In this document: in pieces, positions 4,656 to 43,708 of the stretch
How positions within the stretch are numbered: position 1 is the stretch's first letter
How the letters are laid out: every line of letters begins with the position of its first letter
Position numbers and translations under genes: made by a program
The notes under the pieces: model-generated
Seen by the model: the letters and a program-made list of their open reading frames with translations, nothing else
Database searches by the model: none
Told to the model about the DNA's origin: nothing
NCBI GenBank assembly: GCA_964348725.1
Contig: CAYGDG010000001.1
Span: 65,898-129,897, forward strand
Origin: an uncultured Candidatus Saccharibacteria bacterium
GTDB lineage: Bacteria > Patescibacteriota > Minisyncoccia > Phycocordibacterales > UBA9973
DNA: 64,000 nucleotides
Reading direction: 5' to 3'

Positions 4656-5544
4656 CGTTCACACGACAGTTCTTTTAAATGAAACGGTAGAGGGACTCAA
4701 TCTTCGCAAAGGCGGGGTGGTGATAGACGGCACATTTGGCGGCGGAGGGCACAGCGCTCTGGCATGCGAAAAAGGCGCGAAAGTCATCGCCATAGATCAG
4801 GATGCCGGAGCATTTGAAAAGGCGAAGCATAAGTTTGCGGAAGCAGGGAAGAATTGCAAAATAACTTTCCATAATGACAACTTTCGCAACTTGGATAAAG
4901 TGCTCACAAGCGAAGGAGTAGAAAAAGTAGATGGTATTATGCTGGACCTCGGATTATCTTCCGACCAGCTCGAAAATTCCGGACGAGGATTTTCTTTTAT
5001 CAAGGATGAACCCATCCTGATGACGATGAAAGAAAATCCGCGGCCAGAAGACCTGACCGCCCGCGAGGCGCTGAACTCTTGGAGTGAAAAAAATCTCGCG
5101 GATGTGATATACGGCTACGGCGAAGAAAGATATTCGCGCCGGATAGCTAGTGCCATAGTGGACGCGCGGCAAAAAGGAGATATACAGACGACCAAAGAGC
5201 TCGTCGATATCATTTCCAAAGCTGTGCCGAGCCTGTATCGCCGAGGACGCTTGCATTTTGCCACCCGCACATTCCAAGCTCTGCGTATCGCCGTGAATGA
5301 CGAGCTTGGCGCGTTATCCGAAGGCTTGGCAAAAGGGTTCGAAGCCCTAGCGCCAAACGGCAGAATGGCTGTGATCAGCTTTCACAGCCTTGAAGATAGA
5401 GTAGTGAAGAAATTTTTCAAAGAGAAAGCGGATGAGAAGAAAGGAATTTTAATAAACAAGAAGCCGATAATCGCGGGAGAGACAGAAATGAAAGAGAATC
5501 CTCGAGCACGCAGCGCCAAACTTCGAATCATACAAAAAGCATAA
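4648..5544 (+). CDS. rsmH: 16S rRNA m4C1402 methyltransferase RsmH (MraW)
   Basis: SAM-binding region DGTFGGGGHS. It overlaps mraZ by 8 nt in the conserved dcw order. Confidence 0.95.
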   Translation: MNSVHTTVLLNETVEGLNLRKGGVVIDGTFGGGGHSALACEKGAKVIAIDQDAGAFEKAKHKFAEAGKNCKITFHNDNFRNLDKVLTSEGVEKVDGIMLDLGLSSDQLENSGRGFSFIKDEPILMTMKENPRPEDLTAREALNSWSEKNLADVIYGYGEERYSRRIASAIVDARQKGDIQTTKELVDIISKAVPSLYRRGRLHFATRTFQALRIAVNDELGALSEGLAKGFEALAPNGRMAVISFHSLEDRVVKKFFKEKADEKKGILINKKPIIAGETEMKENPRARSAKLRIIQKA

Positions 5545-24082: not shown

Positions 24083-24550
24083 ATGAAAAAAACCGAAGCG
24101 GCATTTAAGTGGATAGTAAATATTTTAAATGAGCATCAGATTCCTTTCCAAATTGCCGGAGGATTTGCCGCTCGGCTGTATGGGTCTACAAGAGAACTTG
24201 CTGATATCGATATAGATATCCCCGCAGGAAGAATCGAAGACATACAAGAGGATGTGAAAGAATATATAATCTTTGGCCCTGAGATGTATAAAGATGAAAA
24301 TTGGGATTTATTATTGATGACCTTGCGATATGAAGGCCAGGATATAGATATTTCTAGTATTGATACGGTCAAAATTTTTAATCAAAATACCCAGAATTGG
24401 GAAGATGGTGCTTTAGATTTTCAAGATACAAGAATCCATACTGTCTTTGGTCTGGATGTTCCAGTCATTTCTAGGGAAAATCTGATAAAATATAAGAGCA
24501 AGCTCTTGAGAGAAGTAGATAAGCTAGATATTGAAGAAATTTCAAAATGA
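24083..24550 (+). CDS. ANT(2'')/Lnu(A)-family nucleotidyltransferase-like protein
   Basis: IPFQIAGGFAARLYGSTRELADIDIDIP parallels the WIGGGWAIDARLGRVTRKHDDIDLTFP core of aminoglycoside-2''-adenylyltransferase and lincosamide nucleotidyltransferase. About 155 aa. Confidence 0.65.
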   Translation: MKKTEAAFKWIVNILNEHQIPFQIAGGFAARLYGSTRELADIDIDIPAGRIEDIQEDVKEYIIFGPEMYKDENWDLLLMTLRYEGQDIDISSIDTVKIFNQNTQNWEDGALDFQDTRIHTVFGLDVPVISRENLIKYKSKLLREVDKLDIEEISK

Positions 24551-26274
24551 AATCCGAAATCAAAAAATTCTTTAAGGGGGAAGTGGAGGATGATGTGGAA
24601 ACACTCGGCAAGTACAGCCACGATGCGAGCATTTTTGAAGTGCGGCCGCAGGTGGTGTGCTATCCGAAGGATTCGTACGATGTACAGCACCTCGTCGCCT
24701 GGGTGGCGGATAATAAAAAACATCATCCGCATCTTTCCATCACCGCCCGCTGTGCTGGCACGGACATGTCCGGTGCGGCCATTGGTGAATCCATTATTTT
24801 GGATTTCACCCGGCATATGAATAAATTGATTGCATTCTCACCCTCTCCTTTACAAGGAGAGGGCCGGGGTGAGGTGAATTCCACTTCCATCACCGTCCAG
24901 CCCGGTATGTTCTACCGCGATTTTGAAAAAATTACTTTGGAGAAGGGAATGATTCTGCCGTGTTATACCGCTTCAAAGAGCATCAATGCAGTGGGCGGGA
25001 TGTACGGTAATAATTCTGCCGGCGAGCGCACGCTGAAATACGGCAAGACGGAGAATTATATCGTGTCGGCGAAAGTGGTTTTTGCGGATGGTGTTGAAAG
25101 GGAAGTGAAATCTTTTCCGGTAGGTATGATGGAAAAACAGCCAGAGATGTACAGGAAATTGTACGAGCTCGTAAAAAATAATGAAGACGATATTACTCAT
25201 GCAAAGCCGCAGGTAAGCAAGAATTCCGCCGGATATTATTTGTGGAATCTAATCCGGCGGGACTCTGCTAATTTTGCCGCTTTACCCGCAAGCGGGCTCC
25301 GACAGGGCCAAAATTCCCAGAGTCCCGCCTACTTTGATCTGAACAAAGTACTTGTCGGCTCGCAAGGCACGCTCGGCATTGCTACGGAAATCACTTTTCG
25401 CCTCGTGCCAGAGCAGAAATATTCAAAATTAGTGGCGATATTCATGAATGACCTTTCGCCGCTCGGGCGCCTTGTGCCGGAGATATTATCGCAAGAGCCG
25501 GAAACGCTAGAGAGCTATGACGACAAGACTATGAAGCTTGCCGTGCGATTTTTCCCCGATTTTTTAAAAAATAAAGGACTCATCGGAATGATAAAATTCA
25601 TGTGGAGCTTTGTACCGGAATTAAAAATGATGCTCGGTATTCATGGGGGTGGTTTCCCGAAACTCATTTTACTTGCGGAATTTGCCGGCGAAAATGAGGA
25701 AGAAGCGCACAAGAAATGCGAGCGATTGGTGGAACGCATCAAAGAATTTAAATTAAAGACACACATCACAAAGAGCAAAGCTGAGGCGGATAAGTATTGG
25801 GACATCCGTCGGCAGAGCTTCGCACTCCTGCGCAAGCACGTGGCGGGAAAAAAAACCGCGCCGTTCATAGATGACATCATCGTGCGTCCGGAATTCTTGC
25901 CGAAATTTATTCCGGAGCTGAACGCCATACTTTCAAAATATGATTTGACCTATACCATAGCCGGCCACGCAGGCGACGGGAATTTCCACATCATCCCGCT
26001 GATGGATTTCAAACGCGAAGACACGGGGAAGATAATCATGGAGCTGTCAGACAAAGTGTATGACCTGGTGGCGCGCTATCGCGGCTCCATCACCGCCGAG
26101 CACAATGACGGTCTCGTGCGCACGCCGTATCTCGGCAAAATGTACAGTGAAAAGATGCTCCGCCTCTTTGCTGAAACCAAGAAGATTTTTGATCCGCAAT
26201 ACATTCTCAATCCAGGTAAAAAAGTGGGCACCACTAAGCAGTATTTAGCAGAGCATATCTCGAAAAACATCTAG
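24547..26274 (+). CDS. FAD-linked oxidase (GlcD/D-lactate dehydrogenase family)
   Basis: PCMH-type FAD-binding domain (ITARCAGTDMSGAA...TVQPGM) and a C-terminal FAD-oxidase domain. It contains two in-frame repeat insertions. Confidence 0.85.
   Translation: MKSEIKKFFKGEVEDDVETLGKYSHDASIFEVRPQVVCYPKDSYDVQHLVAWVADNKKHHPHLSITARCAGTDMSGAAIGESIILDFTRHMNKLIAFSPSPLQGEGRGEVNSTSITVQPGMFYRDFEKITLEKGMILPCYTASKSINAVGGMYGNNSAGERTLKYGKTENYIVSAKVVFADGVEREVKSFPVGMMEKQPEMYRKLYELVKNNEDDITHAKPQVSKNSAGYYLWNLIRRDSANFAALPASGLRQGQNSQSPAYFDLNKVLVGSQGTLGIATEITFRLVPEQKYSKLVAIFMNDLSPLGRLVPEILSQEPETLESYDDKTMKLAVRFFPDFLKNKGLIGMIKFMWSFVPELKMMLGIHGGGFPKLILLAEFAGENEEEAHKKCERLVERIKEFKLKTHITKSKAEADKYWDIRRQSFALLRKHVAGKKTAPFIDDIIVRPEFLPKFIPELNAILSKYDLTYTIAGHAGDGNFHIIPLMDFKREDTGKIIMELSDKVYDLVARYRGSITAEHNDGLVRTPYLGKMYSEKMLRLFAETKKIFDPQYILNPGKKVGTTKQYLAEHISKNI
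24841..24876. repeat. Family-A GC-rich palindromic repeat inserted in frame in the FAD oxidase gene
   Basis: CCCTCTCC-TTTACAA-GGAGAGGG-CCGGGGTGAGGTG, translated PLQGEGRGEV. About 29/36 nt identical to the copy at 35231-35263. Confidence 0.7.
25279..25330. repeat. Family-B-like palindromic repeat (TTTACCCGC-AA-GCGGG...) in frame in the FAD oxidase gene
   Basis: TTTACCCGCAAGCGGGCTCCGACAGGGCCAAAATTCC, translated LPASGLRQGQNSQSP. It shares TTTACCCGC...GCGGG with the atpG copy at 35561. Confidence 0.5.
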
Positions 26275-30184: not shown

Positions 30185-30200
30185 TTTTCTCTGACTCTCA

Positions 30201-30227
30201 AAAAACCCGCTTCGGCGGGTTTTTTGT
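30201..30227 (+). terminator. Rho-independent terminator after the RRM gene
   Basis: AAAAACCCGC-TTCG-GCGGGTTTTTT. Confidence 0.8.
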
Positions 30228-30258: not shown

Positions 30259-30299
30259 AAGCGAGGCAAGACCTAACATGTTAGGTCTTGCCTCGCTTA
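30259..30299 (+). other. Perfect 19-bp hairpin in the 5' leader of the tRNA-Ile transcript
   Basis: AAGCGAGGCAAGACCTAAC-ATG-GTTAGGTCTTGCCTCGCTT, directly after a TGTTATATT -10 box at 30247-30255, with tRNA-Ile 11 nt downstream. Confidence 0.6.
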
Positions 30300-30310
30300 A
30301 GCCGACTTAT

Positions 30311-30382
30311 GAGTGTGTAGTTCAGTGGTAGAACGCTGTCCTGATAAGACAGAGGTCGATGGTCCGATTCCATCCACACTCA
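30311..30382 (+). tRNA. tRNA-Ile (anticodon GAT)
   Basis: GAGTGTGTAGTTCAGTGGTAGAACGCTGTCCTGATAAGACAGAGGTCGATGGTCCGATTCCATCCACACTCA, 72 nt. Anticodon loop CTGATAA; clean cloverleaf. Confidence 0.9.
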
Positions 30383-39360: not shown

Positions 39361-40024
39361 ATTTTATGTAGTCGCCACGCCGATAGGCAATATGGAAGAC
39401 ATCACGCATCGCGCGGTGCGTATTTTGGGCGAGGTGGATATGATACTCTGCGAAGACACGCGGATGACAGCAAAAATTTTAAATAAATACGGCATCAAAA
39501 AGCCAACGATGAGCTATCACGCGCAGAGTAAGCTTTCGAAGACTGAAAAGATTTTTGAACTTTTGGAAGAGGGGAAAGATTTAGCGCTGGTTTCAGATGC
39601 CGGTACGCCTGGTATATCTGACCCAGGTGCTTTACTTGTTTCTCAAATAAAAGAAAAACTGCCTGAAGTACAGGTGATTCCTGTACCCGGCCCATCCGCC
39701 CTCATCGCCGCGCTTTCAGCTTCGGGACTACCGACGCATGAATTTACATTCTTGGGATTTCTGCCACACAAGAAGGGAAGAGAAACTTTATTTAAAGAAA
39801 TAGCCGCCGCCGAACGCACGATGGCCTTTTATGAAAGCCCGCACAGAATTTTAAAAACTTTAGAATCTTTACAGAAATTTTGCCCGAATAAGAAAGTCTG
39901 TATTGCTCGCGAAATCACCAAAATATACGAAGAATTTAAAACCGGTACAGCTGCCGAGTTGTCAGCTTACTTTGCCGAAAATCCGGACAAAGTGCGCGGC
40001 GAGTTCGTAGTACTGGTGGCCTAA
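39353..40024 (+). CDS. rsmI: 16S rRNA 2'-O-ribose C1402 methyltransferase RsmI
   Basis: Tetrapyrrole-methylase fold: YVVATPIGNMEDITHRAVRIL...ILCEDTR. Confidence 0.9.
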   Translation: MPKFYVVATPIGNMEDITHRAVRILGEVDMILCEDTRMTAKILNKYGIKKPTMSYHAQSKLSKTEKIFELLEEGKDLALVSDAGTPGISDPGALLVSQIKEKLPEVQVIPVPGPSALIAALSASGLPTHEFTFLGFLPHKKGRETLFKEIAAAERTMAFYESPHRILKTLESLQKFCPNKKVCIAREITKIYEEFKTGTAAELSAYFAENPDKVRGEFVVLVA

Positions 40025-41982
40025 AGTATATCCTCAGGATCTGCATGTACAGAAAATTCCGGTGGTAGGGAAAGGATTTTTACAGCGAGGCGCTCGTCTG
40101 GCATTTTTCCGGCGGGAATTTTGATCAGCATATTTGTGATATATGCGCCTGCCTGCCGTCCGGTAAATGCGGCATAGATGTGCGGCTCGTATTCGCGGAA
40201 TACTTCGGCGAGGGCGTGCTTTATTTCAGCCGCTTGTTCGCGCGTGCCCTGGTGGGTGATTTTAAGAAAGCGCACATACGGCGGATAGCCGAGCTTTTCC
40301 CGGTCCGCTAATTCTTCGCGCACATATGGCAGGATGTTGCCTTCGGTGATGGCGCGCAGGGCCGGTTCATTCGGATTTTTTGTGCGGATGAGCAGGCGAT
40401 TGCTCTTTGCGATGATGGCAAGCAAGAGCTGGAGCGCTCGTTCGCCGATGCGGAAATTCGGTATGGAAAAAAGGGAATCAAGCGAAGCGATGACTGAGAG
40501 CGGCACGCGCTCGGGCAGATACGGAAATGCGAGCTCTGTGCCCACGAGGATGGCGCCGCGGCTCTCGGCGAATTGCGCGGCTATTTTTTTTGCCTGCGGG
40601 GCGGTCTTTACGGATTCTTTGTCCAGCTGGAATATTTCTGTTTTCGGAAAATTTTCGCGGCATGCTTCAGCCACGGCATCCGTACCCACGCCGAGCGGCA
40701 TGAGGTTCCAGCCGCCGCATGTTGCGCACTTGGTATTGGAATCTTTTTCGCTGTGGCAACGGTTGCAGGCGTAGCGGCGTTTTGATTTGTCACGCGAGAA
40801 ATACAGCACTACCGGTGCGGAGCATTTATCGCAGAATACTGGCGTGCCGCAATCGCGGCATACGGTGAGCGTGCCGAGCCCTTTGCGCAGGGAAAAGATA
40901 AAAACATTCTCGCCTTTTTGCAAAGTGCTTTGTATCTCCTCCCGTGCGGCTTCGGGCAGGATATTGAACCCGCCCGGGCGGGCAGGCTTCTCTTCTTTTT
41001 CCAGTATTTTGATTTCGCAGTCTGAATCGGTGCGGAAAGAAAATCGCACTTCGCCGAAGTGTTCGTTCTCGCGGCGGGCGATGGTGTCAAAGCGGAGCAA
41101 CGTGTCCGCAAAGATGAGCCGGGCGCCCATTTTCGCCGCGAAAAATTCGGCAAAGATGCGCAAGTCCAGATATGGGCGTGCGATGAGCTTATACGCGCCG
41201 GAGCTTTCATGCTCTATGATTACTGTGCCGATGTCGGCCCGCGGTATGGATACGTATGGCGCGGTGGCGAGGATGAGCACGGGGTGAGGGCACGCTATAG
41301 TAGCGAGCCAGGTACTCGTCTGCTTTTTTGTGGTCATGCCGCCATGGACGGAGAAAGTAAAATTCTCTATGCCTTTTTGTAATAACTCGGAAAATATTTC
41401 TATGTCGCGCTCGGTGGGCAATACGATAAAGACGGATTTTTTCTCGGCGAATGACGAGCGGATGAGCGTTTTGTAATGCGAGACGCGTTCGGCGAGTGGA
41501 GATTGGAAAAGAAGTTTTTCGGGCACGCTTCGCGCAGAATGTGAATCCTGGGGTCGCATAATTTCCTGCTGGAAATTTGCTCCTGCTCGGCCCGACGGCC
41601 TGTGCAAGACCCCAGGATTCACATTCTGCGCTTTACTGATGAGATCATAATTCTCCCGGAATGCCGCGGGGATGAGCGAAGCGATAGTGTCATTTTTTCT
41701 GGCGGCGGAATATTTTGCCAGCTCCAGCGCGCTTTCTAAAAATTCCGGGCGAAATACGGAGTTGCCTTTTACCTCGGTCACCTTGCGCAGATTGAAATCC
41801 ATATTCTTAATGTCGCTCTTTGCGCCCTCGGCATCTTCAGTGGAAGCCACCAGCCCGAGGATATTTTTTTTACGCACCGGTATTTCCACGATGGCGCCTA
41901 CAGGCGCGTCCTTTGCCGTAAAATACGTCAGGTCCTCGCGGAAAGCGCCTTTTTGGAGGGGAATTACGGTCAGGATTTTCAT
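40021..41982 (-). CDS. priA: Primosomal protein N' (PriA) with degenerate helicase motifs
   Basis: N-terminal 3' DNA-binding domain, Cys-rich zinc-binding insert (CRDCGTPVFCDKCSAPV...CNRCHS...CATCGG) and a C-terminal domain. Walker A is replaced by SPLAERVSHY and DEEH by IEHE. Confidence 0.8.
   Translation of the reverse strand: MKILTVIPLQKGAFREDLTYFTAKDAPVGAIVEIPVRKKNILGLVASTEDAEGAKSDIKNMDFNLRKVTEVKGNSVFRPEFLESALELAKYSAARKNDTIASLIPAAFRENYDLISKAQNVNPGVLHRPSGRAGANFQQEIMRPQDSHSARSVPEKLLFQSPLAERVSHYKTLIRSSFAEKKSVFIVLPTERDIEIFSELLQKGIENFTFSVHGGMTTKKQTSTWLATIACPHPVLILATAPYVSIPRADIGTVIIEHESSGAYKLIARPYLDLRIFAEFFAAKMGARLIFADTLLRFDTIARRENEHFGEVRFSFRTDSDCEIKILEKEEKPARPGGFNILPEAAREEIQSTLQKGENVFIFSLRKGLGTLTVCRDCGTPVFCDKCSAPVVLYFSRDKSKRRYACNRCHSEKDSNTKCATCGGWNLMPLGVGTDAVAEACRENFPKTEIFQLDKESVKTAPQAKKIAAQFAESRGAILVGTELAFPYLPERVPLSVIASLDSLFSIPNFRIGERALQLLLAIIAKSNRLLIRTKNPNEPALRAITEGNILPYVREELADREKLGYPPYVRFLKITHQGTREQAAEIKHALAEVFREYEPHIYAAFTGRQAGAYITNMLIKIPAGKMPDERLAVKILSLPPEFSVHADPEDIL
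40969..40982. repeat. Family-B palindrome CCCGCCCGGGCGGG inside priA
   Basis: 14-nt perfect palindrome of the CCCGCC-NN-GGCGGG type, encoding KPARPGGF on the minus strand. Confidence 0.5.
41532..41631. repeat. ~100-nt compound inverted-repeat (MITE-like) element in frame inside priA
   Basis: Perfect 24-bp arms GCGCAGAATGTGAATCCTGGGGTC and GACCCCAGGATTCACATTCTGCGC flank a 52-nt core that has its own small IRs (TTTCCTGCTGGAAA, GGCCCGACGGCC). Confidence 0.7.
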
Positions 41983-43036: not shown

Positions 43037-43708
43037 ATGCTTGCCGAACATTTTCACCACGCATATCTGATAGAAGGAAATGAAATTCCGGAGGATATGC
43101 GGGAATTTTGCCAGAATTCTGATCTGTGCGAGATAGTCCTGGATACTTTTAAAATAGATGATGCGAAGCACGTGCGGGCGCTGGCGGGGGAGAAAAGCAG
43201 TAAGCGGAAAATCTTTGCCGTCCGCGCGAACAGCCTGACTTTAGATGCGCAGAACGCGCTCCTGAAGATATTTGAAGAGCCTGCGCCGGACACGCATTTT
43301 CTTCTGATTGTGCCGGAGAAAGCATCGCTTTTGCCCACGCTCCTTTCGCGCTTTTATCATGTGCCGAGCGAACAGAACGTAGACACGAGGGACGCGGAAA
43401 AATTTATACGCATGCCGCGCGCGGCGAGGGTAGAGTTTTTAAAAGAACTGCTTACTGAGGAAGATTTTGAAGATGTATCAGCCGAGCTTCGCGCCGACTC
43501 GCCGCGCTCCAAAGCGCTAAAATTCTTAAATGCCCTAGAGCGCGCCCTGCATGACCAGATTTTTGCAAAGGACGGTCCTTTGCAATCCAAAGGACCGTCC
43601 TTTGCAACTTTTGACCAGATATTCACTGCCCGCGAATTTATCCGCATGCCAGGCTCTTCGGCGAAATCCCTCATGGAATCGGTCGCGCTGGCGATTCCAA
43701 ATTTTTAG
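43037..43708 (+). CDS. holB: DNA polymerase III delta' subunit (HolB), short form
   Basis: AAA+ clamp-loader layout with HAYLIEG, FEEPAPDTHFLLIV and sensor TLLSRFY. It contains an in-frame repeat insertion. Confidence 0.75.
   Translation: MLAEHFHHAYLIEGNEIPEDMREFCQNSDLCEIVLDTFKIDDAKHVRALAGEKSSKRKIFAVRANSLTLDAQNALLKIFEEPAPDTHFLLIVPEKASLLPTLLSRFYHVPSEQNVDTRDAEKFIRMPRAARVEFLKELLTEEDFEDVSAELRADSPRSKALKFLNALERALHDQIFAKDGPLQSKGPSFATFDQIFTAREFIRMPGSSAKSLMESVALAIPNF
43552..43620. mobile_element. 51-nt palindromic insertion flanked by a 9-bp target-site duplication, in frame in holB
   Basis: TGACCAGAT [TTTTGCAAAGGACGGTCCTTTGCAATCCAAAGGACCGTCCTTTGCAACTTT] TGACCAGAT. The insert is two copies of the self-complementary 20-mer CAAAGGAC(G/C)GTCCTTTGCAA. 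Insert plus duplication is 60 nt, so the frame is kept, with DQIF duplicated at protein level. Confidence 0.7.

What the first reader, a model, noticed from the sequence alone, without database searches (positions are those of the whole stretch)
43552..43620. Palindromic insertion with a 9-bp target-site duplication sitting in frame inside holB
A 51-nt element, TTTTGCAAAGGACGGTCCTTTGCAATCCAAAGGACCGTCCTTTGCAACTTT, is flanked by the direct repeat TGACCAGAT at 43552-43560 and 43612-43620. It consists of two tandem copies of the self-complementary 20-mer CAAAGGAC(G/C)GTCCTTTGCAA.

Insert plus duplication is 60 nt, or 20 codons, so the reading frame of the delta-prime subunit is preserved. The protein shows the matching duplication, HDQIF-AKDGPLQSKGPSFATF-DQIF.

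A target-site duplication is direct evidence of transposition-type insertion. It is the strongest single case that these in-gene palindromes are or were mobile.
Basis: seen in the sequence. Interest (0 to 1): 0.75.

Follow-up and report, generated by a model that had tools for sequence, protein, structure and literature searches.

The report
REPIN-like palindrome pair inside holB
The palindrome pair inside this clamp-loader gene is real, but it is not a fresh transposon hit marked by a target duplication: it belongs to a hairpin-repeat family (REP/REPIN-like, with its own IS200-type 'RAYT' transposase in related genomes) that in these tiny bacteria sits in frame in surface loops of essential genes and has occupied this same loop of holB for a very long time.

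Summary
The sequence is exactly as described: 51 nt flanked by TGACCAGAT, in frame in holB. The two copies are better described as a perfect inverted doublet: 20-nt arms, 5-nt loop, centre G versus C.

The palindrome core CAAAGGAC-S-GTCCTTTG is a dispersed repeat in Patescibacteria, found in about 39 of 68 hit loci across 185,579 species genomes. About half the copies are in frame inside housekeeping genes. In seven loci, lineage-specific versions of it bracket an IS200-like Y1 (RAYT-type) transposase gene. So the family looks mobile, in the REP/REPIN manner.

The 9-bp repeat is not a transposition hallmark:
- 43 other copies have no flanking repeats beyond chance.
- Two recG gains, compared with empty sites in 77-83%-identical relatives, replace 6-15 nt and duplicate nothing.
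- IS200/RAYT chemistry makes no target duplication (established knowledge).

holB was not an empty target either. Every homologue has a linker here, and 27 of 76 orthologues hold a perfect hairpin with a stem of at least 8 nt in it, with strong synonymous-site constraint, compensated stem changes and inverted loops.

No RAYT gene and no second copy lie in this 64-kb window.

The parts
43037..43708 (+). holB (DNA polymerase III delta-prime), the host gene, 223 aa
   Evidence: ORF. Pfam PF13177, 49 bits. 383 homologues, the nearest 50% identical, all Patescibacteria/Paceibacteria.
43563..43607 (.). REPIN-like inverted doublet: two REP palindromes forming one hairpin with 20-bp arms (43563-43582 and 43588-43607) and a 5-nt loop CAATC (43583-43587)
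   Evidence: repeat I6, 100% complementary. Folding. The same design is seen in L001, L026, L061, L063, L070, L089 and L155.
43563..43585 (.). REP copy 1: 23-nt perfect palindrome TTGCAAAGGAC-G-GTCCTTTGCAA, centre G at 43574; encodes (F)AKDGPLQ
43588..43604 (.). REP copy 2: CAAAGGAC-C-GTCCTTTG, centre C at 43596 (the reverse complement of copy 1); encodes SKGPSF
43604..43611 (+). 3' tail GCAACTTT, shared with copies in other genomes; encodes A-T-F, including the nearly invariant F192
   Evidence: CAAAGGACCGTCCTTTGCAACTTT (24 nt) is identical to the REP 20 nt downstream of the RAYT gene in L029 and to the recG doublet tail in L063. F192 is nearly invariant in the alignment.
43552..43560 (+). 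Left copy of the 9-nt direct repeat TGACCAGAT (codons H172 third base, D173, Q174, first two bases of I175); end of helix 156-176
   Evidence: Corresponds to the native LH-x-[KQ]-[IVF]-F motif of relatives.
43612..43620 (+). Right copy of the 9-nt direct repeat TGACCAGAT (F192 third base, D193, Q194, first two bases of I195); start of helix 190-202
   Evidence: Corresponds to the native F-[DE]-[QH]-I-F motif of relatives.

Best explanation
The element is a REPIN-like doublet: two inverted copies of a REP-type palindrome (core CAAAGGAC-S-GTCCTTTG). It belongs to a repeat family that is specific to, and widespread in, Patescibacteria.

The family is paired with a RAYT-type (IS200-like, HUH/Y1) transposase. 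That gene is bracketed by lineage-specific versions of the same palindrome. By analogy with known REP/RAYT systems, it would recognise the hairpin on single-stranded DNA and copy or move it without making a target duplication (inferred, not shown).

The motif has no stop codon in any of the six frames and encodes Gly/Pro/Ser/Lys-rich peptides. Copies therefore survive in frame in surface loops of essential genes.

The loop between helices 156-176 and 190-202 of holB is such a permissive hot spot. It has carried a REP hairpin since before the Paceibacteria lineages sampled here diverged (shown). The window's doublet is the local, compensated variant of that resident hairpin, not a new hit on an empty gene.

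Perfect arm complementarity, loop and centre-base inversion, and outward growth of the palindromes are best explained by replication template switching between the arms (inferred from published behaviour).

The 9-nt direct repeat is most likely a by-product. It may reflect similarity between the two native helix ends, or a local slippage or template-switch event. It is not a transposase footprint.
For: Family and dispersal
- A scan of 185,579 species genomes for CAAAGGACSGTCCTTTG gave 68 loci, about 39 of them from Patescibacteria. Several genomes have 3-5 hit contigs, and doublets are frequent.
- About half the Patescibacteria copies are in frame in long ORFs. Hosts include PheT, Mur ligases, KsgA, UvrC, GlmS, CysS, AlaS and LigA, plus RecG and MiaA.

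Transposase
- In L018, L022, L023 and L029 the palindromes bracket a 224-233-aa ORF on both sides. Each ORF passes the Pfam Y1_Tnp threshold (24.9-33.3 bits, cutoff 23) and best matches NCBIfam REP-associated tyrosine transposase (E = 3e-12 to 3e-10). Each has the HUH motif (NHFH) and the YIHLNP motif.
- Three further clade members (L160-L162) are each bracketed by their own variant, of the form TGT-N-AAGGAC-S-GTCCTT-N-ACA.
- The clade has 2,589 members; named ones are from Paceibacterota, Nomurabacteria and Minisyncoccia.
- The window's 24-nt CAAAGGACCGTCCTTTGCAACTTT is identical to the REP next to the L029 RAYT.

No target duplication
-.

Recent gain elsewhere
- The doublet is present in 2 of 119 RecG relatives that are 77-81% identical. 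51 of them have the empty form RPNGQSFGNLQ.

Long residence in holB
- The same core sits at the same site in L001 and L002, and is the only copy in each region.
- 27 of 76 linkers have a perfect stem of 8 nt or more, against 4.7% and 2.7% in two controls.
- Synonymous sites are constrained: Asp GAC 28 of 30 (28% gene-wide), Ser TCA 29 of 31 (13%), Lys AAG 23 of 25 (18%). Pair 8-16 covaries 24 A-T to 6 G-C with one exception.
- The segment is a loop in the AlphaFold model, pLDDT 68-79.

Template-switch signatures
- Inverted loops and centre bases, and genome-specific but perfectly paired outer stems. These match PMC8604942 and PMC8794818.
- The REPIN concept is from PMC3116915.
Against: - No RAYT homologue and no second copy of the core lie in this 64-kb window. 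The organism's own genome was not among the species representatives scanned. So family membership rests on sequence identity with copies in other genomes.
- The RAYT-like proteins score below NCBIfam's equivalog cutoff (40-47 bits against 80).
- REPs are by definition extragenic, and many of these are intragenic.
- The canonical 5' GTAG of REPs was not seen.
- The 9-nt repeat remains statistically unusual (0.2% of controls; 2 of 76 orthologues), and I can only offer untested origins for it.
- In miaA (L014 against the window) the palindrome sits in a segment of unchanged length. That looks like replacement or conversion rather than insertion.
- Long conservation at one site with sequence-level constraint could instead reflect a cis-acting function.
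- No transposition assay or population polymorphism was available.
Confidence: 0.7

Rival explanations
1. A MITE-like element was inserted by a cut-and-paste (DDE-type) transposase that makes 9-bp staggered cuts. TGACCAGAT is its target-site duplication, and the pre-insertion gene had a single TGACCAGAT.
For: - An exact 9-nt direct repeat immediately flanks the palindromic unit. A repeat that long is found at only 0.2% of random control positions.
- Insert plus repeat is a multiple of 3.
- The family is dispersed.
Against: - None of 43 other copies has a flanking repeat of 9 nt or more, and their distribution matches the controls.
- The recG filled-versus-empty comparisons show replacement of 6-15 nt and no duplication.
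- The holB doublets in L001, L089 and L144 have no such repeat.
- The predicted empty site would lack the linker present in all 120 aligned homologues, and would lack the nearly invariant F192.
- The only transposase found associated with the family is a Y1/HUH type. By established knowledge that type makes no target duplication.
Confidence: 0.08
2. A purely mutational origin. The palindromes arise and grow in place by replication template switching (inverted copying of neighbouring sequence). No element or transposase is involved. The direct repeat is the re-copied stretch of a template switch that returned upstream of its departure point.
For: - Arms are perfect without G-T pairs, loops are inverted, and outer stems are genome-specific yet complementary. 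These are the published signatures of template switching (PMC8604942, PMC8794818).
- Other in-gene palindromes with unique sequences occur at shared variable sites, for example in priA and rseP.
- The window has 19 perfect inverted repeats against about 3 expected.
Against: This cannot explain how the same 17-27-nt sequence, and the same doublet with the same tail and frame, appear in unrelated genes of different genomes. Nor does it explain why the palindromes bracket RAYT genes and co-vary with them.
Confidence: 0.12
3. A conserved cis-acting signal. The holB hairpin is kept because it does something, either as an mRNA structure (for example a processing or stability site upstream of frr) or as a DNA site bound by a dimeric protein. 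Its resemblance to dispersed repeats is secondary.
For: - It is conserved at one position across orthologues only 45-50% identical, with strong synonymous-site constraint and a constant 5-nt spacer between GTCAA[AG]G and C[TC]TTGAC.
- It lies about 125-170 nt upstream of the frr start, in a conserved mreB-holB-frr-rseP gene order.
- The right arm of the consensus contains TTGACA.
Against: - Many orthologues have no hairpin, a different hairpin, or an unrelated 80-100-nt hairpin at this site, in either orientation.
- G-T and A-C mismatches are equally frequent, so there is no sense-strand RNA signature.
- There is no Rfam family; only generic miRNA-precursor hits far below threshold.
- The same motif occurs in many unrelated genes and in intergenic regions.
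- The window's variant has TTGCAA, not TTGACA.
Confidence: 0.08
4. An artefact or a non-translated segment. Either the palindrome is an assembly chimera, or ribosomes bypass it, using the direct repeat as take-off and landing sites.
For: - Inverted duplications can be amplification or assembly artefacts.
- Matched take-off and landing codons next to a hairpin recall programmed bypassing in T4 gene 60 and in mitochondrial 'byp' elements (my own knowledge, not tested here).
Against: - An independent assembly is identical over 13.8 kb.
- The same core is found in dozens of independent assemblies.
- All 76 distinct linkers keep the reading frame open whatever their length.
- Bypassing would produce a linker-less protein unlike any homologue.
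Confidence: 0.02

Closest known systems
REP / REPIN elements with RAYT transposases (Proteobacteria; PMC3116915, PMC3337134)
   Same: - Short palindromic repeats dispersed in many copies.
- Frequent inverted doublets that fold into one long hairpin.
- An IS200-like Y1/HUH transposase gene flanked by its cognate repeats, with the repeat sequence co-varying with the transposase lineage.
- No target duplication.
- Long vertical persistence (bioRxiv 10.1101/2021.07.10.451892).
   Different: - Found in Patescibacteria, not Proteobacteria.
- The repeats are shorter: 17-23-nt perfect palindromes and 45-51-nt doublets.
- About half the copies are inside protein-coding genes, in frame and apparently translated, whereas REPs are defined as extragenic.
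- No canonical GTAG head was seen.
- The transposases are about 225-235 aa and fall below NCBIfam's RAYT equivalog cutoff.
Rickettsia palindromic elements (RPEs; discussed in PMC1779305 and PMC10969869; details from my own knowledge)
   Same: Palindromic repeats inserted in frame into essential protein-coding genes. They are tolerated because they land in surface loops, and they add peptide segments.
   Different: - RPEs are 100-150 bp, occur in Alphaproteobacteria, and have no identified transposase.
- Here the elements are 17-51 nt and are linked to a RAYT-type gene.
- Here the same loop is occupied across very divergent orthologues.
Bacterial MITEs with terminal inverted repeats and fixed-length target-site duplications (review: PMC10969869)
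   Same: Small, non-autonomous, hairpin-forming and dispersed. This single copy has a flanking direct repeat.
   Different: - The family has no consistent duplication.
- The recG gains duplicate nothing.
- No DDE transposase is associated.
- The palindromes extend into locus-specific flanks.
Template-switch-generated and template-switch-maintained hairpins (PMC8794818, PMC8604942)
   Same: Perfect arms, compensated multi-nucleotide changes, spacer inversion and palindrome expansion inside coding sequence.
   Different: Template switching alone makes locus-specific sequences. Here one specific sequence recurs at many loci and next to a transposase.
Double-hairpin elements and 'byp' elements of fungal mitochondria (my own knowledge, not checked here)
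   Same: Tiny two-hairpin mobile elements that also land in protein-coding genes.
   Different: They are organellar, with unrelated sequences. The byp elements are skipped by ribosomes, whereas here the frame is always kept open.

Membership tests
REP/REPIN-RAYT system | A short palindromic repeat present in multiple dispersed copies per genome | tested here: met
   Met for the family: several Patescibacteria genomes have 3-5 hit contigs for the exact 17-mer, and partial copies lie nearby. Not shown for the window's own genome: only one locus in 64 kb.
REP/REPIN-RAYT system | Inverted doublets (REPINs) that fold as a single long hairpin | tested here: met
   The window doublet has 20-bp arms. 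Doublets also occur in L026, L061, L063, L065, L070, L089 and L155.
REP/REPIN-RAYT system | A Y1/HUH (IS200-like) RAYT gene flanked by the cognate repeats | tested here: met
   Seven loci (L018, L022, L023, L029, L160, L161, L162) have a PF01797 gene bracketed by the lineage's palindrome. The NCBIfam RAYT model is the best hit, but below its equivalog cutoff. None lies in the window.
REP/REPIN-RAYT system | Extragenic location | tested here: not met
   About 25 of 45 Patescibacteria copies lie in frame in open frames of 150 aa or more, in identified housekeeping genes. The window copy is inside holB.
REP/REPIN-RAYT system | Insertion without a target-site duplication | tested here: met
   The family shows no flanking repeats beyond control levels, and the recG gains have no duplication. 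The window copy, with its 9-nt repeat, is the exception.
REP/REPIN-RAYT system | A conserved cleavage tetranucleotide (GTAG) at the 5' foot of the hairpin; RAYT binding and cleavage of the single-stranded REP | not testable with these tools
   No GTAG was seen. The flanks are usually T(G/T)T...A(C/A)A or TTAC. Binding and cleavage need biochemistry.
MITE mobilised by a DDE transposase | Fixed-length target-site duplication at every copy | tested here: not met
   0 of 43 copies have a repeat of 9 nt or more. The mean longest repeat is 4.5 nt, against 4.3 nt in 2,337 controls.
MITE mobilised by a DDE transposase | Constant terminal inverted repeats abutting unrelated target sequence | tested here: not met
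   The palindromic symmetry continues into locus-specific flanks at many copies, for example L010, L015, L033, L043 and L047.
Rickettsia palindromic element-like in-frame insertion (resemblance in behaviour only) | In-frame, stop-free palindromic insert in a permissive surface loop of a conserved protein | tested here: met
   The 60 nt are in frame. The motif has no stop codon in any frame. The segment is a low-confidence loop between two helices. The position is variable in the alignment.
Rickettsia palindromic element-like in-frame insertion (resemblance in behaviour only) | Sequence homology to RPE families | not tested
   No RPE sequences were available for comparison. Size (17-51 nt against 100-150 bp) and phylum differ.

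The most novel reading that the evidence does not exclude
Paceibacteria carry a REP-RAYT system whose hairpins have colonised the coding sequence of essential genes (holB, recG, ligA, uvrC, aminoacyl-tRNA synthetases). The hairpins keep returning to, or persisting in, the same protein loops, possibly because they insert preferentially into pre-existing hairpins. On this reading a domesticated single-strand transposase, together with template switching, continuously rewrites surface loops of core proteins across a whole phylum. It would also account for the record inverted-repeat density reported for Kaiserbacteria and Campbellbacteria. A stronger version is that the holB hairpin has been co-opted as a cis-acting signal.
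Probability: 0.3. Interest if true: 0.8.

Novelty: new variant of a known kind. Interest (0 to 1): 0.6.

Why it matters
REP elements are textbook 'extragenic' repeats, and the enzyme behind the in-frame palindromes of Rickettsia has never been identified. Here a REP/REPIN-like family with an associated RAYT-type transposase is found in the ultra-small Patescibacteria. A large share of its copies are translated as loops of essential proteins, and one loop of holB has been occupied across very deep divergences.

This matters in three ways:
1. It offers a concrete, testable cause for the finding that Kaiserbacteria and Campbellbacteria have the highest perfect inverted-repeat density of any phylum (PMC13155455).
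2. It shows how selfish hairpins and template switching can diversify protein loops in reduced genomes.
3. It carries a methodological warning: a single flanking direct repeat is not enough to call a target-site duplication.

I found no paper in the searchable library that links RAYT/REP elements to Patescibacteria.

Tried and rejected
- Viral-contig scan of the 17-mer: three hits in unrelated contexts, at chance level.
- Rfam: only sub-threshold miRNA-precursor models, a generic response to any hairpin.
- Close empty-site holB orthologue: none exists; the nearest relative is 50% identical.
- Carriers of the exact core forming one holB clade: they are scattered on an NJ tree, but resolution is poor at 45-60% identity, so neither single nor multiple gain could be settled.
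- DNA-uptake-sequence idea: copy density is far too low, with only one locus in 64 kb. Half-sites without a full palindrome do occur (28 positions in the hit loci); one search shows partial copies beside full ones, though this was not tested for all 28. Rejected.
- parS, matS, operator or restriction-site resemblance: recalled from memory only, no match. An odd parS-like CACGTG repeat flanks the L016 copy; not followed up.
- Promoter idea (TTGACA in the right arm of the holB consensus): no convincing -10 box by eye, and the window variant lacks it. Not pursued.
- RNA versus DNA discrimination by G-T versus A-C mismatches: 5 against 5, uninformative.
- Programmed translational bypass using the repeat as take-off and landing sites: rejected, because it would give a linker-less protein unlike any homologue.
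- tblastn for a RAYT in the window and in all 160 other loci: found only in the four loci already identified.
- Exact origin of the 9-nt repeat: a tandem duplication of period 22 does not fit, since the repeats are 60 nt apart. A template-switch return-point model could not be tested.
Full report
OBSERVATION

The window sequence is exactly as reported. TGACCAGAT lies at 43552-43560 and 43612-43620, flanking 51 nt. The unit sits in frame in ORF 43037-43708 (223 aa), which is a DNA polymerase III delta-prime (holB) by Pfam PF13177. The 20-mer occurs nowhere else in the 64 kb (0.04 expected). The 9-mer occurs only at these two places.

The two copies form a perfect inverted repeat with 20-nt arms and a 5-nt spacer. 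The centre base is G in one copy and C in the other. The unit folds as one 20-bp hairpin (RNA -38.5 kcal/mol, z = -6.6; DNA z = -7.5). An independent assembly of run ERR3094302 is identical over 13,823 nt, so this is not an assembly artefact.

IS holB AN 'EMPTY SITE PLUS INSERT'?

The nearest holB homologue is only 50% identical, so no close empty allele exists. The alignment of homologues nevertheless argues against a simple insertion:
- Every homologue has a variable 9-35-residue linker between LH-x-K and F-x-Q-I-F.
- Removing the 20 codons would give LHDQIFTAREF, with no linker at all.
- It would also remove the nearly invariant F192, which is encoded by the last triplet of the 'insert'.
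- The first DQIF aligns with the native LH-[DQ]-[KQ]-[IVF]-F of relatives, and the second with their F-[DE]-[QH]-I-F.

In an AlphaFold model (pLDDT 85.8) these two motifs are the end of helix 156-176 and the start of helix 190-202. The palindrome-encoded residues 177-189 form a lower-confidence loop.

THE SAME CORE AT THE SAME SPOT IN DISTANT ORTHOLOGUES

P0005 (locus L001) carries TTGAAAAGGACCGTCCTTTACA-ggat-TGGAAAGGACGGTCCTTTTCAA in the same linker. P0039 (L002) carries the perfect 29-nt palindrome CCTATGTCAAGGAC-A-GTCCTTGACATAGG. Neither has the TGACCAGAT-type repeat. In the window, L001 and L002, the core AAGGAC-N-GTCCTT occurs only at this site.

I then fetched 80 orthologous holB loci from metagenomes:
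- 27 of 76 distinct linkers hold a perfect hairpin with a stem of 8 nt or more. Most fit (A)TGTCAAAG-N5-CTTTGACA(T).
- The control rates are 4.7% for same-length windows elsewhere in the same genes and 2.7% after resampling synonymous codons.
- Synonymous sites are strongly constrained: Asp GAC in 28 of 30 (28% gene-wide), Ser TCA in 29 of 31 (13%), Lys AAG in 23 of 25 (18%).
- The third position of a variable codon is C in 29 of 31, where it pairs with G9.
- Pair 8-16 switches A-T to G-C in concert (24 against 6, with one exception).
- G-T and A-C mismatches are equally common, so nothing points to a sense-strand RNA specifically.

L089 and L144 have inverted doublets like the window's; L089 has 21-nt arms with the loop sequence flipped.

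A second class of linkers (peptide KNFSGLTLPGVPGGTHTVQNSLQIC and its relatives) is an 80-100-nt hairpin. Its 18-24-bp basal stems are perfect; they differ between genomes yet stay complementary. Its conserved apical segment of about 66 nt occurs in either orientation in different genomes and is in frame both ways.

So a hairpin in this loop is ancestral and dynamic. It is not new.

IS THE PALINDROME A DISPERSED ELEMENT?

A scan of one genome per 185,579 species for CAAAGGACSGTCCTTTG returned 68 loci.
- By my own estimate, about 70 chance sites are expected in 596 Gb. The roughly 29 non-Patescibacteria hits fit that expectation.
- About 39 hits come from Patescibacteria (Paceibacterota, Kaiser-, Nomura-, Adler- and Lloydbacteria, Minisyncoccia, and MAGs labelled Saccharibacteria). 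These are a small part of the collection (my estimate, not measured).
- Several genomes have 3-5 hit contigs.
- The copies usually extend to TACAAAGG...CCTTTGTA or TTGCAAAGG...CCTTTGCAA. A second full or partial copy often lies 5-30 nt away, frequently with the centre base flipped.
- About half lie in frame in long open frames. The motif has no stop codon in any frame and reads KD[GR]PL, KG[PR]SF or QRTVL.
- Hosts identified by Pfam are PheT, two Mur ligases, RsmA/KsgA, UvrC, GlmS, CysS, AlaS and LigA, plus RecG and MiaA.

THE TARGET-SITE-DUPLICATION TEST

For 43 Patescibacteria copies, the longest direct repeat between the two 24-nt flanks averages 4.5 nt, against 4.3 nt at 2,337 random control positions. 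None reaches 9 nt; the control rate for 9 nt or more is 0.2%. At many loci the palindromic symmetry continues into locus-specific sequence (L010, L015, L033, L043, L047). An inserted element with fixed ends would not produce that. Between the two linker-flanking helices of holB itself, 2 of 76 orthologues reach 9 nt or more: the window, and L083 with 10 nt.

A CLEAN FILLED-VERSUS-EMPTY COMPARISON IN recG

L063 and L035 carry the palindrome at the same residue of orthologous RecG helicases. Among 119 RecG proteins 77-81% identical to L063's:
- 51 have the short form RP-NGQS-FGNLQ.
- Only two carry the doublet: P0121 (L063), RP-AKDGPSPDRKGPSFAT-FGNLQ, and P0123 (L155), RP-TKDGPLESKGPSFGTFATQS-FGNLQ.
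- Those two are not each other's nearest relatives.

At the DNA level, the doublet replaces about 15 nt of native sequence in P0121 and about 6 nt in P0123, with no exact duplication. These doublets share three things with the window's holB copy: the order (G-centred copy, then C-centred copy), the reading frame (KDGPL...KGPSF.TF), and the 3' tail G(C/G)A-AC(T/C)-TT(T/C). So the doublet as a unit has entered different genes.

In miaA, the L014 copy occupies a segment of the same length as the window's palindrome-free orthologue. That is again replacement rather than pure insertion.

THE COGNATE TRANSPOSASE

At four loci where copies cluster, they bracket a 224-233-aa ORF on both sides and also occur in frame inside it: L029 2681-3358, L018 217-915, L023 1408-2082 and L022 5871-6572.
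- All four pass Pfam's threshold for Y1_Tnp (IS200-like; 24.9-33.3 bits against a cutoff of 23).
- Their best NCBIfam hit is REP-associated tyrosine transposase (E = 3e-12 to 3e-10), though below the equivalog cutoff of 80 bits.
- They carry the HUH motif (CLMPNH-F-H) and the YIHLNP tyrosine motif.
- The clade has 2,589 members at E <= 1e-10. Those that carry a source name are from Paceibacterota, Nomurabacteria and Minisyncoccia, and one JGI record is called RayT.

Three further members are each bracketed by their own variant:
- L162: TGTAAAGGACgGTCCTTTACA.
- L161: TGTGGAAGACgGTCTTCCACA.
- L160: TGTGAAGGAcctTCCTTCACA.

These have the same form as the holB hairpins, for example L085 ATGTCAAAGACgGTCTTTGACAT.

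The REP 20 nt downstream of the L029 RAYT, TTGCAAAGGACCGTCCTTTGCAACTTTG, shares 24 consecutive nt with the window's second copy and tail. No RAYT homologue is present in the window or in the other fetched loci. RAYTs are normally single-copy (PMC5581495, abstract), so a 64-kb window would usually miss one.

MECHANISM, AND WHAT IS SHOWN VERSUS INFERRED

Shown:
- Family membership by sequence.
- Dispersal across loci and genomes.
- The doublet design.
- Association and co-variation with a Y1/HUH transposase.
- Absence of flanking duplications in the family.
- Recent gain in recG.
- Long residence of the hairpin in the holB loop, with constraint at the nucleic-acid level.

Inferred from established knowledge:
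- IS200/IS605 and RAYT enzymes act on single-stranded hairpins and make no target duplication.
- REPINs are the mobile unit (PMC3116915, PMC3337134).
- REPIN populations persist vertically (bioRxiv 10.1101/2021.07.10.451892).

Inferred from published behaviour:
- Template switching between inverted-repeat arms homogenises the arms and inverts the spacers (PMC8604942), and it can create and maintain perfect hairpins (PMC8794818). This fits the perfect arms, flipped loops and centre bases, and growing palindromes seen here.

The origin of the 9-nt repeat is unresolved. Three possibilities remain: partial native similarity of the two helix ends, a slippage event, or a template switch with an upstream return point. 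Given the family data, a transposase footprint is the least likely.

COMPARISON AND NOVELTY

The system works like REP/REPIN-RAYT and meets most of the defining features. It fails the 'extragenic' criterion, and its transposases are divergent. In its effect on proteins it behaves like the Rickettsia palindromic elements. A 2026 survey reported that Campbellbacteria and Kaiserbacteria have the highest perfect inverted-repeat density of any phylum, without giving a cause (PMC13155455). I found no paper linking RAYT/REP elements to Patescibacteria. I therefore class this as a new variant of a known kind.

VERDICT

- The 'target-site duplication proves a transposition-type insertion into holB' part is not supported.
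- Confidence in the REPIN-like explanation is about 0.7.

Noticed in passing
window 41532-41631 (inside priA, ORF 40021-41982, minus strand); L001 3537-3576: The window has a perfect 24-nt inverted repeat with a 52-nt loop inside PriA. L001's PriA has a different perfect 19+19-nt palindrome in the same variable segment, between FRENYD.ISK and EKLLFQ.PL. L002 has none there. This is another shared hot-spot loop holding unrelated palindromes.
   Followed up: partly
window 24843-24861 (inside the FAD-oxidase ORF 24547-26274); L001 5510-5528 (inside holB); L079 129; L087/L088 982; L114 1917; L162 2319 (next to the RAYT): A second dispersed palindrome family..CACCCC..CCCTCTCCTT-N3-AAGGAGAGGG..GGGGTGAGG. 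It is often in frame and encodes peptides such as SPSPLQGEGRGEV or PLSLxRRGVGGEV. None is expected by chance in the window.
   Followed up: partly
holB linkers of L075, L110, L130, L132, L141, L150 (+ orientation) and L079, L080, L097, L099, L117 (- orientation): A conserved element of about 66 nt (GAAAAATTCTGCCGGCTTAACCCTTCCCGGAGTACCGGGTGGGACYYACRCCGYTCAGAATTTTTC) sits in the holB linker in either orientation in different genomes. It is in frame both ways (NFSGLTLPGVPGGTHTVQNS or ENSERRKSHPVIREGSRRQNF) and is nested inside genome-specific perfect stems of 18-24 bp. It resembles an intragenic invertible segment.
   Followed up: partly
window 30259-30298: A perfect 40-nt palindrome with no spacer, AAGCGAGGCAAGACCTAACA|TGTTAGGTCTTGCCTCGCTT. 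It is intergenic, between a terminator-like hairpin (30199-30226) and what looks like a tRNA gene starting near 30318.
   Followed up: no
window, whole: The window has 19 perfect inverted repeats (arm 9 nt or more, loop 10 nt or less), against 1-5 in 20 shuffles. Some look like terminators, and others fall within long ORFs listed, for example 14856 and 24841. Imperfect in-ORF palindromes also occur at 25247-25338 (FAD oxidase) and 4977-5049 (RsmH).
   Followed up: partly
L029 2847, L018 737, L022 (about aa 55-60 and the C-terminus), L160 1673: The RAYT-like genes carry an in-frame copy of their own REP inside the coding sequence (peptide KG[RP]SF near residue 57). Another REP overlaps the 3' end.
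   Followed up: no
L013 and L023 (MAG labelled Bdellovibrionales, binchicken_co128_120): A non-Patescibacteria MAG carries the same RAYT clade and at least six copies of the same 17-mer on two contigs. This is either horizontal transfer or mis-binned contigs.
   Followed up: no
L016 5870-5935: The REP copy here is flanked by an imperfect 16-nt direct repeat containing a parS-like CACGTG core: TTACACGTGAACCGGT ... TTTCACGTGAAACGGT.
   Followed up: no
L002 6529-6572 (inside rseP): A double hairpin with an unrelated sequence but the same design: ACGAAGGC-ctt-GCCTTCGT, 6 nt, ACGAAGGC-aag-GCCTTCGT. The second copy is the reverse complement of the first, with its loop flipped.
   Followed up: no
RecG relatives P0122-P0240, region between GDVGSGKT and MAPTE: Besides the empty form and the doublet, this loop has several other recurrent insert types: RPEKDGQRQSFGN, RPQDKNGKTQTFGN, RPFDYAQGKPQTFGN, and 36-44-aa forms. 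The KDG-containing ones may be decayed REP remnants.
   Followed up: partly
L022 5768-5864; L072 4888-4982: Tandem triplets of the REP with units of about 34-38 nt. So the family also amplifies locally as tandem arrays.
   Followed up: no
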